Shown piece by piece: positions 27,001 to 36,000 of a stretch of 64,000 bases of DNA. Source of the DNA: Gekko japonicus (taxonomy: Eukaryota); assembly GCF_001447785.1 (NCBI RefSeq), contig NW_015163751.1, positions 1-64,000 on the forward strand. Reading direction: 5' to 3'. The position numbers are program-made. Numbering within the stretch: the first letter of the stretch is position 1; each line of letters begins with the position of its first letter.

Positions 27001-30000
27001 GTGGTGCAAAGTCCCCATATTTGTTTTCCCTTTCCAATGTTGTTACCCAAGAGCACAGAAACGCCAAAAAAATAGACTAGGCACAAAATAGGATATCTTC
27101 TAGAATGCAAACATAGGAAATGAATGACGCGTCAGGTCAAATCTATCAGCCCTTGTGTGTTCTAATTTGTTATTTGTACATGAGGTGTAACTGGGCCCTT
27201 ATATATACTTTTAAAATCTTTGTTTAATAAATACATGTATCTTTTTAATAAATTTCATATATTAAGCTTTTATTGTTGGCCCTCTTTTGCATTTGACTAG
27301 CCTTTTTTATATCCAAGTTCGAGACCCGAGTGTGCCGCATGACGGAGTGAGCTCCCGTCTCTAGTTCCAGCTCCTGCCAACCTAGCAGTTCGAAAGCAAG
27401 AAACTGCAAGTAGATAAATAGGTACCACTTCGGTGGGAAGGTAACAGCATTCCGTGTGCCTTGGTGCTTAGTCATGCTGGCCACATGACCACGGAAACGT
27501 CTTCAGACAGCGCTGGCTCTTCGGCTTTGAAACGGAGATGAGCACCACAACCCTAGAGTCGGATTTGACTGGCTTTCGAGCAAGGGAACCTTTACCTTTA
27601 CCTTTAGCCTTTTTTAGGTTCTAGACACCACTAGGGTGGCCAGCTCTGGGTTGGGAAGTACCTGGAGATTTTGGGGGTGGAGCCTGGGGAGGGGAGGGAC
27701 CTCAGGAGGGTCCACCCACCAAAGCAGCCATTTTCTGCAGAGGAACTGATCCTGGTCATCTGAAGATGAAGTGTAACAGTGGGAGATCTCCAGGTGCCGC
27801 CTTGGACACTGGCCACCCTGGATACCACCAAAGCAACAAAACGAGTGTGCCTGCAGACAGAGAAGGTGGAGGGGTGTCTCCATACTAGCAGGTCTCCCCC
27901 AGGTGTACAGGGAAGTACAGCCTTTTCAGCTAACTAGAATCAAAATAAGAGACTGAGGAATAAATCCAGCTTCAAAGAGAACTGAGTCTTCTCCAGGAAG
28001 CCCAGAATGTAAAGAGCAGCTTAGAGTCAGCTAAAGGTGGGAAATGGGGTGAGGGGAGAAGACATCAACCTGCTTAAGTCCTCCCTGTAAGAGCTTACGG
28101 AATCCTGGAGGAGATTTGGTGACAGAGGTAATACTTTGAAGTTCTACAACCCCCTCGCCCTGCCACTGATTTCTTGCAGGGCCTCAGCGTGTGCAACTAT
28201 CCCTCAGGTCCTGTTCCGTCTGGCGCTGAGCACAGGTCCTTTTAAAAGCGGATTTAAAAATTGATGTTCACTACTGCTTTTTCTTGTGCTGTGAACAAAC
28301 AATTCCTTTCCCTGAAATCTTGGAGGTTGCATTTCGTGCTGTATTTTCCCTGGAATGTATAAATGAATAGTCATGAATAGTCACGCCAAGGATTGCGGGA
28401 TGATCCATTTTATATAGTGTGTTAAACTCTATGATTGTCATGGAAGTTGATATCATTCACTTGGGGACATATTTCTTGATGCTTCATGGTATCCCTGCCC
28501 CCTTTTTAATGTCCAAATGTTTTGAATCCTAGCATCTCATCAAATTATATCTGGACTGATTTTACGAAAAGTTATATAAACCAGTCACCGGATCCAGAGG
28601 CAGCAATGCAGGAAGCCAAGGATAGTCAGGCAAGTGTGTTGTTGGGAAACAGGAGTGGCGCTGCTGCAGATAACGGCTTCTCCTCAAGGTGGCCATCCTC
28701 GGGGCGAGGCCTGAAGTTCTCCCAAAAGGACAACTCTTTCTTTTATGAAGTTGGAGAACTTCCGGCCAACCTTCCATGCTTGGGCAAGGTGTTTGCGTGG
28801 GTTGTGGCTTCTCAGCTTCAAGGGCTCTTGGAAGACGCTGATTTTTCTAGACTCATTTCAAACTGGCTTCAGGCCAGGATTTGAAACAGAGACTGCTTTG
28901 GTCGCCTTGGCTGATGAGCTCTACTGAGAAACAGACAAGTGGAATGTGACCCTGCCAATCCTGCTGGATCACTCAGCAGCCTTCAATACTATCAACCATA
29001 GTACCCTACTGAGTTGCCTGTCAGCACTAAGACTAAGGGAGCCTGTATTGTGGGAGTTCTAGTCCTATTTTGTCAGTCTCAGAAGGTAGTGCTGGAGGAT
29101 TCCTACTCTGTCCTGTGGCCATTGGACTGTGGGGTTCCTCAGGGTTTGATCGTACCCCCCATGCTGTTTAATATCTATGTGAAACTACTGGGAAAAGTAA
29201 TAATCAAGTCTGAGCTGCGGTGTCACCAATATGCGGATGATATCCAGCTCTGCCCCCCCCCCCCGTTCTGAAGATGCTGTTGATCTTCTGAACTGGTTCT
29301 TGGAATCCATAATGGGCTGGACGAGGGTGAACAAGCTGGAACGACAAGACAGAGGTTCTCCGGGTTAGTAGAAAGGTAGACCAGAACCTTTGGATTCCTC
29401 CTGTCTTGGAGGGGGTTATACTCTCCTTGAAAAGCCAGGTTCACAGCTTGGGAGTGCTACTCGACACAGCAGCTACCTTTGAAAACCAGACGGCTACAGT
29501 GGCTCAGAGTGCTTTTTCCCAGCTTCAGCTGGTGCATTAGCTGCATCCATTCCAGTTCAATCAGATCTTACCCACCGTGCTGCATGCCTTAGTTACACGC
29601 AGACTGGGCTATTGCATTGCACTCTGCTTGGGGCTACCCTTGAAGAGGGCTCAGAAGCTGCAGCTGGTGCAGAATAAAGCGGCTGGACTGCTGGTTGGGA
29701 ATAGCAATTTGGAGCATGTCTCCCCAATACTACAGCATTTACAATCTATCAATCCACTCCCAAGCCCAATTCAAAGTGTTGTTTTCAACCTTCAAAGCTT
29801 GGACTGGAGAATCTTCTTCCATATGTTCCTGCCGGGGAATTAAGGTCACAAGGAGAGCCTCTCCTTTCTTTCCGATCAATCATAGGAACTTCTTTGGTGG
29901 GTATACAAGACAGGGCCTTTTCAGTGGCAGCCCCACAATTCTAGAACAAACGTCTCCCCAGGGAGGCATGCCTGCCCCCCCCCGGATCTTTAGGAAGTAG

Positions 30001-33000: not shown

Positions 33001-36000
33001 AACTAGAACCTTAGGATTCCTCCTCTCTTGGAGGGGGGTTATACTCTTAAAAGTCAGGTACACAGCTTGGGAGTGCTACTCAACATAGCAGTTACCTTGA
33101 AAACCAGACGGCTACGGTGGTTCAGAGTGCTTTCCCCCAGCTTCGGTTGGTGCATTAGCTGCATGTGTTCCTGGTTCAATCAGATCTTACCCACCGTGCT
33201 GCATGCCTTAGTTACATGTAGACTGGGCTATTGCATTGTGCTCTGCTTGGGGCTACCCTTGAAGAGGGCTCAGAAACTGCAGCTAGTGCAGAACAAAGCA
33301 GCTAGACTGCTGGTTGGAACCAGCAATCTGGAGTATGTCGCCCTAATACTACAGCAGTTACAATCTATCAGTCCACTCCCAAGCCCAACTCAAAGTGTTG
33401 TTTTCAGCCTTCGAAGCCCTCCTGGCCTGGGACTGGAGAATCTTCTTCCATATGTTCCTGCCTGGGAATTAAGGTCACAAGGAGAGGCTCTCCTTACTGT
33501 CCCACCAATCAAAGGAGTTCCTTTGGTGGGTACACAAGAGAGGGCCTTTTCAGTGGCAGCCCCACAGTTCTAGAACAACCTCCTCCCCAGGGAGGTGTGC
33601 CAGGCCCCCTCCCTTTAGATCTTTAGGATGTAGTTGAAGACAGCTTTATTTAGGATTGCATTTGATTATGTTGCTTGCAGTCCTAAATTGTGATTTTTTT
33701 TATTTTGTATTTTATGTATTCTATAATGTATTTTACCTTTATCATAAGCCATCAAGCACTGAAAGGAAGAATGGTGGCTAATAAATGTTTTAAATAAATG
33801 AATATTCTGTAGGCGACAGTGCCCAGGTGAAAACAGCAGCCCTGGAGGGTAGGATAAAGAGAAGTCCTAGAGTGGCTGCAGAGGGTGGATGCTGGTAGAC
33901 TTCAGCTTCTCCTGTATAAGAAGAAGCATCTCTGCTGGACTCCCTCCCCTGACCACACTTTGCCCTCTCTGGGCACTGCTTCTGTGTCTCCCATGCTGGA
34001 ATGGGCAACCCAACTTCTTCATCTTCTAAGAAGGTAACAAGAAGAAGGGCTGTGTCTACACAAATTGGAAGTTAGAATCCTGCCCCCAGGGAGTCTGAAT
34101 TCTACTGGTAGTAAACCCTGCCCCACTCAGCTTCAGCTTCTGAGACCTCAGGATCTTACCTTGCATGCGATGAGTATAGAATTCTACATTTATCTCTCTT
34201 GTTTTGCGCATTTACAGCTTATCCGACATTTTGGGACCCCGGAAGAAATAGCATTGGCTGCCCTGTTCCTTGCCGCAGATGGTACTTTCTGCACTGGTTT
34301 AGACCTTATGATTAGTGGTGGAGCTGAAGTCGGCTTTGGGAAGAAGAAGCAGGTGGATCCGGAGCCTGAGCCAAGTGGGGGTGGGAACTCACAGGGTTCC
34401 TCCAGCAAGCAATAGAACTAAAAAGGGGAGAGGAAATAAAAGCTAAGAATACAAGTGTCTGATTCAAAGTCATCCCTCCAAGAAGAAGAGCTCCACAGAG
34501 GTGTTGTAGAAAAGCAAAAAAAAAAAAAAAGCAAGAAAGCAAGAGACCTTTAGTGTGTGGAGTAGGACAATTCAGTAATGAAACTTACTGGAGGCCCTTG
34601 AGCCAATCACAAATACACAACCTGAGCTGCCACACGGGATGTTGTGAGCAGAAAGGGGAGACCCATGTGTGTCACCTGCAGGGTTTTTATTTTTAGAGAA
34701 GGCAGAATTTATTTACTTATTTTTATTTGATTTGTTTTTCATCTTGCCCTACCCTGCAAGCTGGCTCAAGGCATGTTACAACATACAAGATACTGAACAA
34801 AAAAAAAAAATTAAAACCCTAGAAGCAACTATTTCAAAAGTCTGACTCAGTCACAAGATGGCAATTTGAAAAACTTGCGTTGTCCGAGTACATAGAGGTA
34901 TGAATGGTCCAGGTTCTCAGAGTGGTAGGACCGTCACAGAGGGCTGATTAATCAGGAGGGGGACCTTAAAGTCCCTTTAAGACACACCCATCCAGATGGG
35001 CCACACTGATAAAAAAGACTCGTGTTCTGTATTCATGTGGGTAGGGTTGCGACTTTTCAAACTGGCCTCTTGCTGGTTTCTTTAGTATCCATTTGATCCA
35101 CATCAAATATCGGGGGGTATCATTCACTTCCATGCCATGGAAAGCTTCTGCTGCCCATTTCCACACATGAAGCCTCTATTAGAGGGACAGGACATTCTTC
35201 CCCAGGTCTGTTGGCCACCGTGCTTACTGGGTTTCCAGGCCTGTAACATCTGAGGGGCAACGAGAAATTCAACACATCCACCTGTCCTGGAATGAAAGAT
35301 GGCAGATCCATCTTGGATTCATGCACCTCGGACTCTGATAGTGTAAGCAAGAGCTAAGCCCTGGAATGTATCTTCTCTATTCAGGCTTTGGTTGGTCATA
35401 TGAATTTGCTCCAGGACAGCGAGACCAGGAAATGGTGGAACTTCATTAAGCGTTTTCTGTCGATGTTTTCTCTTCCTGTTGACTGACAACTGTGCCTTTT
35501 CTGATCCCAATAAAGAAACAGTTCAAGGAAAAGAGATGCCATAGTTGTGTTGTTGCTGTTTGGCTTTAATAGATGAAAATGAGTTTGCATCAGGAGCTAC
35601 CCTTCCTAGTTAAGCTGGGTTTGATGTGCTCTCCCTGGCCTTCCATCTTCCTTTCCCCACACCTCCAAGCTCTCTGCCTGGATTTGTTTCCTTCTCCCCC
35701 TCAGTTCCCTTTTTGTTTGTTTATAAGCAAATTGTGCTTTCTTCCTGATGATGGAGAAGCGAAAGCAGGGCTTCTGATGAGAGGGGTGGTGGTGGTGGTG
35801 GAGTAGATCTCCTCATCCCGAGATACCACCCAGCAATTCAATGGTTGAATCAAGGGTAAAAAAGTCACCCAGCTTTTTCAGGTGCCATCATCAAAATAAG
35901 CTATTAAGAAAGTGCAACATCACAAAACAGGGGAAAGCAACTGCCCACTAAGCTGGACAATGTATGGGAAGGTCTTTCAGAAAACCTTGGGCAAGCTGTA

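What the first reader, a model, noticed from the sequence alone, without database searches (positions are those of the whole stretch)
27850..35180. Tandemly duplicated exon 8+9 cassette may give copy B alternative C-terminal thirds
Seen: after exon 9a and its AATAAA, a second intact exon 8b and 9b follow, with their own acceptors, GC donor, stop and AATAAA. No exons 1-7 were found in between. Exon 7 could splice to 8a-9a or 8b-9b, or 8a could splice to 9b, all in frame. Exon 8a has lost the conserved Pro (ISS) while 8b keeps ISP. Inference: mutually exclusive terminal modules that swap the substrate-binding loop and tetramer-interface region on a shared Rossmann core.
Basis: partly seen in the sequence, partly recalled or inferred. 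Interest (0 to 1): 0.72.

Follow-up and report, generated by a model that had tools for sequence, protein, structure and literature searches.

The report
Duplicated last two exons, gecko dehydrogenase
A gecko dehydrogenase-like gene carries an old, still intact second copy of its last two coding exons, but nothing here shows that the spare copy is used, and the gene has lost a key catalytic residue.

Summary
The window is a gecko cluster of HSD17B14-like (L-fucose-dehydrogenase-like) short-chain dehydrogenase genes, not human. The exon 9a peptide is 100% identical to a Gekko japonicus NCBI model.

Copy B ends in a clean head-to-tail duplication: unit a 27836-31484, unit b 31485-35179. Each unit holds an intact exon 8, a GC donor, an intron with a decayed reverse-transcriptase fragment, exon 9 with a stop, and AATAAA. 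No exon 1-7 relic lies between them.

The units differ by 10% in non-coding substitutions, 23 indels and private insertions. No N run lies inside them. They are therefore not alleles.

Use of 8b/9b stays open:
- The NCBI model uses 8a+9a, and no database protein carries 9b.
- An unused cassette would stay intact by chance about 13% of the time.
- Selection tests lack power, because the family is weakly constrained (B versus C omega about 0.56).
- Each cassette has a rare change at a conserved site: 8a Pro to Ser, 9b Gly-Arg to Arg-His.
- Copy B has Ser where the catalytic Tyr should be.

Most likely the distal cassette is a silent or rarely used spare. If it is used, it is a young GNAO1-type terminal exon-pair swap.

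The parts
23567..23674 (+). Exon 6 of copy B. The codon at the catalytic Tyr position (23660-23662) is TCT, Ser. The Lys four residues later is kept.
   Evidence: The same spacing to the KGAV motif is seen in 39 homologous units, of which 31 have Tyr.
26739..26806 (+). Exon 7 of copy B, the last exon upstream of the duplicated block. It ends two bases into a codon (AG|).
27836..31484 (+). Duplication unit a (3649 bp): the 3' part of intron 7, exon 8a, intron 8, exon 9a, the poly(A) signal and the 3' flank.
28533..28629 (+). Exon 8a, followed by a GC donor at 28630-28631. It is used in the NCBI model P0040.
29002..29271 (+). Open frame inside a decayed retrotransposon fragment in intron 8. The fragment is also present in unit b and in intron 8 of copy C.
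   Evidence: Pfam RVT_1, 28.9 bits, E 1.2e-6, just under the 29.6-bit cut-off. Matches to 42152-42716 in copy C.
30603..30800 (+). Exon 9a coding part, with stop TAG at 30798-30800. It is 100% identical to the C-terminus of P0040.
30820..30825 (+). AATAAA of cassette a.
   Evidence: This is a consensus match only.
30846..31165 (+). Stretch of about 320 bp private to unit a, starting about 20 nt after its AATAAA. It is absent from unit b and copy C and has no other copy in the window.
31485..35179 (+). Duplication unit b (3695 bp).
32147..32243 (+). Exon 8b, with a GC donor at 32244-32245. It keeps the Pro (ISP).
34218..34415 (+). Exon 9b coding part, with stop TAG at 34413-34415. It begins LIRH where 51 of 53 homologous segments have Gly and 51 of 53 have Arg at positions 3 and 4.
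34435..34440 (+). AATAAA of cassette b.
34709..34967 (+). Stretch private to unit b. It is absent from unit a and copy C.

Best explanation
Copy B of a gecko-specific HSD17B14-like gene cluster underwent a single 3.65-kb head-to-tail duplication. One breakpoint lies in intron 7 and the other about 680 bp past the stop codon. This produced two complete terminal cassettes, each with exon 8, intron 8, exon 9 and a poly(A) signal.

The duplication is old. The two units have since exchanged sequence in patches, most clearly in a roughly 600-bp tract around exon 8.

The proximal cassette (8a+9a) most likely makes the normal mRNA end. Its acceptor is transcribed 3.6 kb before the nearly identical acceptor of 8b, and it is followed by its own poly(A) signal. 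The distal cassette is most likely a spare that is silent or used only at noise level and has not yet picked up a disabling mutation.

This fits a cluster evolving by birth and death under weak constraint, in which copy B itself has lost the catalytic Tyr.

Shown here: the duplication, its boundaries, its age relative to alleles, the intactness of both cassettes, the annotation's use of 8a+9a, and the Tyr-to-Ser codon. Inferred: that the proximal cassette wins, and that the distal one has no selected role.
For: **The duplication is real and old**
- The junction is clean.
- Non-coding substitution divergence is 262 of 2624 aligned columns, or 10.0%. There are 23 indel events, and each unit has private insertions.

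**Annotation**
- The NCBI model P0040 maps at 100% identity to 8a and 9a.
- With 9b as query, 0 of 33 hits among longer proteins and 0 of 5 hits among near-length proteins exceed 83% identity.

**No sign of constraint on both cassettes**
- Exon 9 differs at 30 of 198 sites, or 15.2%. That is above the non-coding rate (binomial p 0.014, Fisher p 0.029).
- Omega between 9a and 9b is 0.50, from 11 synonymous and 19 non-synonymous differences.
- With copies C and A as outgroups, 10 changes fall on branch a, 10 on branch b and 10 are ambiguous.
- All 4 differences in exon 8 are non-synonymous.
- The absence of indels in 295 coding bases has P 0.075 for all indels and P 0.15 for frameshifting ones.
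- A neutral simulation keeps one cassette fully intact in 13% of 20000 trials.

**Patchy homogenisation**
- The tract 28282-28880 is 5.1% diverged, against 11.4% elsewhere (Fisher p 1.8e-6). Its intronic flanks alone are 5.3% diverged, so the effect is not exon-specific.

**Weak constraint and lost catalytic residues**
- Summing the per-exon rows by hand for exons 2-7 of B versus C gives pS 0.219, pN 0.132 and omega about 0.56.
- Copy B has Ser at the catalytic Tyr position, copy A has Thr there, and copy C has Gln at the catalytic Lys.

**Rare substitutions**
- 9b is rare at two near-invariant positions, Gly3 and Arg4, each kept in 51 of 53 homologous segments.
Against: - Both cassettes are fully intact after roughly 10% neutral divergence: frame, stop, two AG acceptors, GC donor and AATAAA. 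An unused cassette keeps all of these in only about 13% of neutral trials, which gives mild support for its use.
- The acceptors and the donor of 8a and 8b are nearly identical, so nothing in the sequence bars use of 8b/9b.
- The proximal cassette is not the better-looking one throughout. 8a lost the Pro found in 45 of 55 motif matches among homologues. 9a carries states seen in 1 of 53 homologous segments at Ser7, Gly46 and Asn47, and in 1 of 51 at His50.
- Pfam and PDB scores for 9a and 9b are close: 19.7 against 19.6 bits, and 45.4 against 41.2-41.5 bits.
- A 320-bp insertion sits about 20 nt after the AATAAA of cassette a. It could weaken that site and favour read-through.
- Flanking-intron conservation around exon 8 could reflect splicing control rather than gene conversion.
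- The NCBI model is labelled PREDICTED. I could not see whether RNA data support its 3' end.
- The protein database showed no transcript-derived protein for 9a either, so the lack of one for 9b carries little weight.
Confidence: 0.6

Rival explanations
1. The two cassettes are alternative terminal modules, chosen by splice-site and poly(A)-site competition. They give proteins with the same exons 1-7 but different lid helices and a different helix-strand-tail region. This would be a young GNAO1-type tandem-duplicated terminal exon-pair substitution.
For: - All needed signals are present and in frame in both cassettes.
- Intactness has only about a 13% chance under neutrality.
- Exon 8 and about 250 bp of intron on each side are half as diverged as the rest.
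- The a/b differences fall in the lid start, the loop before helix 249-261, strand 270-274 and the tail.
- There is a precedent. In human GNAO1 the two final coding exons are swapped for a tandem-duplicated pair, and 77 of 236 human tandem-duplication substitutions are C-terminal, made through alternative poly(A) use (passages of PMC8373072 and PMC9741552).
Against: - No protein with 9b appears in either search.
- The only model uses 8a+9a.
- The proximal signals are transcribed first.
- Exon 9 evolves at or above the neutral rate on both branches.
- 9b has replaced the near-invariant Gly-Arg.
- The shared core lacks the catalytic Tyr.
Confidence: 0.2
2. Assembly artefact. The two units are alleles, or a paralogue from elsewhere, wrongly joined in tandem.
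For: The contig comes from a scaffold-level assembly of 80,626 bp. The cluster is rich in paralogues.
Against: - The units show 10% substitution divergence, 23 indels and private insertions of about 320 and 259 bp. That is far beyond allelic difference.
- No N lies within 27836-35179.
- The junction joins unrelated sequence, 3' flank to intron 7, with no shared repeat that could mislead an assembler.
- Both units are closer to each other than to copies A or C over most of their length.
Confidence: 0.03
3. Different origin, same present state. Unit b is what is left of a whole-gene tandem copy of B whose promoter and exons 1-7 were later removed by one deletion, from the 3' flank of B to intron 7 of the copy.
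For: - The family expands by whole-gene duplication. At least four copies touch this window.
- In the first 350 bp of the unit and in exon 9, a and b are about as far from each other as each is from copy C. The split may therefore be as old as a gene duplication.
Against: It needs two events where one suffices. No trace of exons 1-7 or of intergenic sequence remains at the junction.
Confidence: 0.1

Closest known systems
Tandem exon duplication-derived C-terminal substitutions, especially human GNAO1 (two final coding exons swapped for a tandem-duplicated pair)
   Same: A tandem duplicate of the last two coding exons lies in the same gene and orientation. Each pair has its own stop and poly(A) signal, and the pairs encode homologous C-terminal parts of one domain (passages of PMC8373072).
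   Different: For GNAO1 both isoforms are annotated. The discussion of PMC9741552 describes events of this class as ancient, many dating to the vertebrate ancestor (passages). Here no transcript or protein evidence exists for the distal pair. The event lies inside a gecko-specific gene expansion, and selection on both pairs is not shown.
Human HSD17B14 (17-beta-hydroxysteroid dehydrogenase 14, reported as L-fucose dehydrogenase)
   Same: It is the best match in both sequence and fold. Exon 9a/9b peptides align to residues 215-264 of the human chains. The P0040 model matches 1YDE, 5EN4 and others at target-normalised TM-score about 0.9 and 46-48% identity. The L-fucose dehydrogenase assignment comes from the title and abstract listing of PMC11293516.
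   Different: The gecko genes form a multi-copy cluster. Copy B has Ser at the catalytic Tyr position and lacks the Gly of the Pro-Gly motif. Its activity is untested.
Partial gene duplicates and orphan exon relics in tandem gene clusters (birth-and-death evolution)
   Same: The 3' gene fragment has no promoter or upstream exons of its own. It sits in a cluster with weak constraint and with lost catalytic residues in several copies.
   Different: Such relics usually carry frameshifts or stops, and this one has none. It also lies downstream within the same transcription unit, so it could be reached by read-through.

Membership tests
Classical short-chain dehydrogenase/reductase, HSD17B14 subfamily | Pfam adh_short / adh_short_C2 domain above the curated cut-off | tested here: met
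   P0040 scores 177.5 bits on adh_short_C2 (cut-off 27) and 165 bits on adh_short. The exon 9a and 9b peptides alone score 19.7 and 19.6 bits, below the cut-off as expected for fragments.
Classical short-chain dehydrogenase/reductase, HSD17B14 subfamily | Fold and closest solved relative | tested here: met
   The AlphaFold model has mean pLDDT 79.7. The top 35 PDB matches are human HSD17B14 chains, with target-normalised TM-score 0.87-0.91.
Classical short-chain dehydrogenase/reductase, HSD17B14 subfamily | Gly-rich cofactor motif TGxxxGxG near the N-terminus (motif recalled) | tested here: met
   Exon 1 of copy B reads VTGGTRGIG.
Classical short-chain dehydrogenase/reductase, HSD17B14 subfamily | Catalytic Tyr-x-x-x-Lys pair (motif recalled; the PDB list includes a K158A mutant entry) | tested here: not met
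   Copy B reads Ser-Ala-Ser-Ser-Lys, with TCT at 23660-23662. Tyr is present in 31 of 39 homologous units and Lys in 37 of 39. Membership by descent is clear, but membership as an active enzyme is doubtful.
Classical short-chain dehydrogenase/reductase, HSD17B14 subfamily | Pro-Gly motif after strand F (motif recalled) | tested here: not met
   8a reads ISSN, with neither residue. 8b reads ISPC, with Pro only. Copy C reads ISPG and copy A reads ISPS.
Tandem-duplicated terminal exon substitution (GNAO1 type) | Homologous exon sets in tandem in one gene, each intact and frame-compatible with the upstream exon | tested here: met
Tandem-duplicated terminal exon substitution (GNAO1 type) | A separate poly(A) signal after each set | tested here: met
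   AATAAA lies at 30820 and 34435. This is a consensus match only, and cleavage was not observed.
Tandem-duplicated terminal exon substitution (GNAO1 type) | Transcripts or proteins that use each set in turn | not testable with these tools
   No RNA data or eukaryotic read collection is on hand. The protein searches found 8a+9a only (P0040) and nothing with 9b.
Tandem-duplicated terminal exon substitution (GNAO1 type) | Purifying selection on both sets, or conservation of both in related species | tested here: inconclusive
   Omega between a and b is 0.50 for exon 9, with few sites. Exon 9 divergence is above the neutral rate. Chance intactness is 0.13. Other gecko genomes could not be searched.
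Dead partial-gene duplicate | Disabling mutation (frameshift, stop, lost splice site) | tested here: not met
   None is present in 8b or 9b.

The most novel reading that the evidence does not exclude
Cassette b is a newly born alternative terminal module. It would be a lineage-specific two-exon C-terminal swap of the GNAO1 kind, caught early, in a dehydrogenase-like paralogue that has already given up its catalytic Tyr. The two lids and tails would then tune a binding role rather than a catalytic one. The low divergence of exon 8 plus its flanking intron in both units would mark splicing control elements rather than gene conversion.
Probability: 0.12. Interest if true: 0.55.

Novelty: new member of a known kind. 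Interest (0 to 1): 0.3.

Why it matters
Passages of PMC9741552 describe human tandem-duplication exon substitutions as mostly ancient. A young event restricted to geckos would show how such events begin: duplication first, then competition between two equivalent 3' ends. It would also supply a natural pair of lid and tail variants on one core.

If the distal cassette is unused, the result is still useful. It is a caution for annotation, because an intact, signal-complete exon pair is not evidence of an isoform. It also shows decay in progress in a fast-turning gene cluster.

The more consequential side result is that three copies in this window each lack one residue of the catalytic Tyr/Lys pair. 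This questions their automatic naming as dehydrogenases.

Tried and rejected
1. **Transcript-derived or annotated proteins with 9b.** Two database searches with 9b found none above 83% identity. The database showed no transcript-derived protein for 9a either, so this is weak negative evidence.

2. **The same arrangement in other geckos' models.** None of 48 retrieved proteins shows exon 8-9-8-9 without an intervening exon 7. The long models of 480-948 aa are fusions of whole units. No close orthologue of copy B was in the retrieved set; the best match over exons 1-7 is 81.8%. Cross-species conservation therefore could not be tested.

3. **Selection tests.** I tried omega, branch polarisation, indel absence and a neutral simulation. 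All are inconclusive because the exons are short and the family is weakly constrained.

4. **Gene conversion from copies A or C into 9a or 9b.** There is no sign of it: 9a and 9b are equally distant from C and from A. Conversion from paralogues outside the window could not be tested. The tail of 9a does match copy D's protein P0022 (SGGRNSQGSSSKE).

5. **Weakening of poly(A) site a by the private insertion.** The GU/U-rich stretch next to the site is kept in both units, so no conclusion is possible.

6. **Literature.**
   - A search for HSD17B14 plus gecko returned 1 paper, on a GeCKO CRISPR library and unrelated.
   - The main texts of two Gekko japonicus genome papers contain no occurrence of 'hsd17b', 'hydroxysteroid' or 'dehydrogenase'. 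In addition, PMC10776941 contains neither 'fucose' nor 'sdr'. Their supplements were not seen and might list this family.
   - A search for a structure paper on the HSD17B14 tetramer returned nothing useful.

7. **Slips and steps not taken.** Two translations were off frame and two paper look-ups had a badly formed term; all were repeated correctly. No oligomer prediction was run.

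
Full report
**What the window is**

The region has the look of a vertebrate genome, with spliced exons, SINE-like and LINE-like repeats and 32-59% G+C per 2-kb block, mostly 40-50%. The exon 9a peptide is 100% identical over its full length to an NCBI model, '17-beta-hydroxysteroid dehydrogenase 14-like [Gekko japonicus]' (P0040, 306 aa, on a contig of 80,626 bp). All other strong hits are gecko proteins from Eublepharis, Heteronotia, Gekko, Paroedura, Sphaerodactylus and Euleptes. The window is therefore gecko, not human.

Mapping three gecko homologues with tblastn and the NCBI models gives four copies.
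- **Copy A** (+ strand): exons 6-9 at about 3750-6700, partial behind an N run.
- **Copy B** (+ strand), exon by exon:
  - exon 1 at 13959
  - exon 2 at 15085
  - exon 3 at 18712
  - exon 4 to 18981
  - exon 5 at 22648
  - exon 6 at 23567-23674
  - exon 7 at 26739-26806
  - exon 8a, 9a, 8b and 9b follow
- **Copy C** (- strand): exon 1 at 56770 through to exon 9 at 39417-39220.
- **Copy D** (+ strand): only its start, at 60272.

**The observation**

It is correct in every particular.
- Self-BLAST pairs 27836-30838 with 31485-34453 at 86.0% identity.
- Local alignment of the three boundary regions gives a sharp head-to-tail junction. Unit a ends at 31484, equivalent to 35179. Unit b starts at 31485, equivalent to 27836. 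No repeat is shared across the break.
- Exon 8a (28533-28629) and exon 8b (32147-32243) share an acceptor context that is identical over the last 40 bases. They also share the donor CAG|GCAAGT. The same GC donor is present in copies A and C, so it is an old feature of the family.
- Exon 9a (30603-30800) and exon 9b (34218-34415) each encode 65 residues and a TAG stop. AATAAA lies 20 nt further on in each.
- The phases make 7>8a>9a, 7>8b>9b and 8a>9b all in frame.
- Nothing resembling exons 1-7 lies between 28630 and 35179.

**Not alleles, not an artefact**

- Non-coding substitution divergence between the units is 262 of 2624 aligned columns, or 10.0%, with 23 indel events.
- Unit a has a private stretch of about 320 bp at 30846-31165. 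Unit b has a private 259 bp at 34709-34967. Neither is present in copy C.
- The only N runs are at 3262-3532 and 36895-37101.
- Intron 8 of both units carries the same decayed reverse-transcriptase fragment (RVT_1, E 1.2e-6). The fragment is also in intron 8 of copy C, so it predates both duplications.

**A mosaic history**

Divergence between the units is uneven. The tract 28282-28880, which is exon 8 plus about 250 bp on each side, is 5.1% diverged against 11.4% elsewhere (Fisher p 1.8e-6). Its intronic flanks alone are 5.3%.

In three-way alignments with copy C, the first 350 bp of the unit and exon 9 show a and b about as far from each other (0.13-0.21) as each is from C. Around exon 8, a and b are 0.02-0.07 apart and 0.09-0.26 from C.

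I read this as an old duplication followed by patchy gene conversion between the units. Conservation of splicing elements around exon 8 is the alternative.

**Is cassette b under selection?**

- **Exon 8.** There are 4 differences in 97 nt, all non-synonymous. By outgroup, 3 are derived in a, including Pro to Ser, and 1 is ambiguous.
- **Exon 9.** There are 30 differences in 198 nt (15.2%), above the non-coding rate (p 0.014-0.029). Of these, 11 are synonymous and 19 non-synonymous, giving omega 0.50. Ten are derived in a and sit mostly in codons 31-65. Ten are derived in b and sit in codons 2-44. Ten are ambiguous.
- **Indels.** The absence of indels in the 295 coding bases has P 0.075-0.15.
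- **Simulation.** I used half the observed non-coding substitution and frameshift rates on one lineage. Frame, stop-free reading, both AG acceptors, the donor and the poly(A) hexamer all survive in 13% of 20000 trials.
- **Family background.** Per-exon B-versus-C counts for exons 2-7, summed by hand, give pS 0.219, pN 0.132 and omega about 0.56. Exon 8 between paralogues has omega near 1.

These tests therefore cannot separate a used cassette from an unused one.

**Conserved sites**

I extracted 53 homologous exon-9 segments from the retrieved proteins.
- Positions 3 and 4 are Gly in 51 and Arg in 51. 9a keeps Gly-Arg, while 9b has Arg-His.
- Position 11 is Val in 48. 9b has Ile, which is seen in none.
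- 9a has its own rare states: Ser7, Gly46 and Asn47 (each 1 of 53), His50 (1 of 51), Asp37 (3 of 53) and Arg56 (4 of 50).
- In exon 8, Pro follows xIS in 45 of 55 motif matches. By my reading, only two of the ten exceptions (His in P0025, Val in P0026) are recognisable exon-8 starts. 8a has Ser there.

Each cassette thus carries one unusual change at a strongly conserved site. Pfam and PDB scores for 9a and 9b are nearly equal.

**What the cassette encodes**

The NCBI protein P0040 was folded with an alignment of 24 database proteins, giving mean pLDDT 79.7.
- Exon 7 gives the long helix 184-203 and the start of strand 206-213.
- Exon 8 gives the rest of that strand and helices 218-225 and 230-239.
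- Exon 9 gives helix 249-261, strand 270-274 and a low-confidence tail at 276-306.

The best PDB matches are human HSD17B14 chains, with target-normalised TM-score about 0.9. The tetramer-interface statement rests on recalled knowledge of short-chain dehydrogenase structure and was not tested.

All searches with window sequence were done exon by exon, so that isoform remains unmodelled.

**A finding that bears on function**

- In copy B, the residue four positions before the catalytic Lys is Ser (TCT, 23660-23662) where the family has Tyr.
- Copy A has Thr at that position (3858-3860).
- Copy C keeps Tyr but has Gln (CAG, 47752-47750) for the Lys.
- Among the 39 homologous units captured, 31 have Tyr and 37 have Lys.

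By the established mechanism of this enzyme class (recalled), the Tyr is the catalytic base. Copy B is therefore unlikely to be an ordinary dehydrogenase, whatever its C-terminus.

**Comparison with what is known**

Tandem duplication of 3' coding exons giving homologous C-termini through alternative poly(A) use is a described class. It accounts for 77 of 236 human events. [quoted passage not shown]

The present locus has the architecture of that class but lacks the evidence of use that defines it.

HSD17B14 has been reported as an L-fucose dehydrogenase (title and abstract listing of PMC11293516). I found no paper on a gecko expansion of this family (supplements not seen).

**Verdict**

This is a real, old tandem duplication of the terminal two-exon cassette. 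The proximal pair is the annotated 3' end. The distal pair is intact, but I judge it more likely silent or marginal (about 0.6) than a selected alternative module (about 0.2).

**What stayed unchecked**
- RNA evidence of any kind.
- Other gecko genomes.
- The remaining 16 kb of the source contig.
- Paralogues outside the window as conversion donors.
- The bacterial and archaeal genome collection was not used because it cannot contain this locus.

Noticed in passing
23660-23662 (copy B), 3858-3860 (copy A), 47752-47750 minus strand (copy C): All three copies whose exon 6 lies in the window lack one residue of the catalytic Tyr-x-x-x-Lys pair. B has Ser for Tyr, A has Thr for Tyr, and C has Gln for Lys. 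Among 39 homologous gecko units, 8 lack Tyr and 2 lack Lys. Recurrent loss of catalysis, or decay, seems to run through this gecko expansion.
   Followed up: partly
34968-35699 (+) against 38946-38236 (-), with the N run 36895-37101 between: Copies B and C lie tail to tail. Their 3' flanks form an inverted repeat of about 76% identity around an assembly gap, so B and C arose by an inverted duplication.
   Followed up: no
56770-56651 (-) and 60273-60133 (-) / 60272-60310 (+): The NCBI model for copy C (P0041) starts in an exon at 60273-60133 and skips an intact canonical first exon at 56770-56651 that encodes the Gly-rich cofactor motif. That alternative first exon overlaps, on the opposite strand, the first exon of the copy D model (P0022).
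   Followed up: no
6507-6665 and 6847-6912 (copy A): The NCBI model for copy A (P0050) leaves the exon-9 frame after ...GPD and takes its last 15 or so residues from a further small exon near 6862-6912. The continuous frame instead stops after ...GPDQCSL. The C-terminal tail is therefore built differently in this branch of the family.
   Followed up: partly
Homologue models P0004, P0005, P0006, P0007, P0008, P0009, P0010, P0031, P0039, P0042: Several gecko database models of 480-948 aa are two or three whole dehydrogenase units fused in series. They are either read-through transcripts across tandem copies or merged gene predictions.
   Followed up: no
26001-26249 and 26353-26601: A 249-bp direct repeat at 95% identity lies in intron 6 of copy B. 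It also matches 46816-47065 in copy C at 82%.
   Followed up: no
27446-27600 and 21957-22111: A SINE-like element in intron 7, just upstream of the duplication breakpoint, has a 94% identical copy in intron 4 of copy B.
   Followed up: no
Exon 9a tail (30765-30797) and protein P0022 (copy D): The last 13 residues of 9a (SGGRNSQGSSSKE) are identical to the C-terminus of the copy D model. They include two states (Arg, Glu) that are derived relative to 9b and copy C. This hints at gene conversion between 9a and copy D, whose DNA lies outside the window.
   Followed up: no
Exon 6 of B versus C (23567-23674 versus 47857-47750): Exon 6, which holds the active-site residues, shows pN 0.174 above pS 0.082 between copies B and C. 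Exons 5 and 8 are also fast, while exons 3, 4 and 7 are conserved.
   Followed up: no
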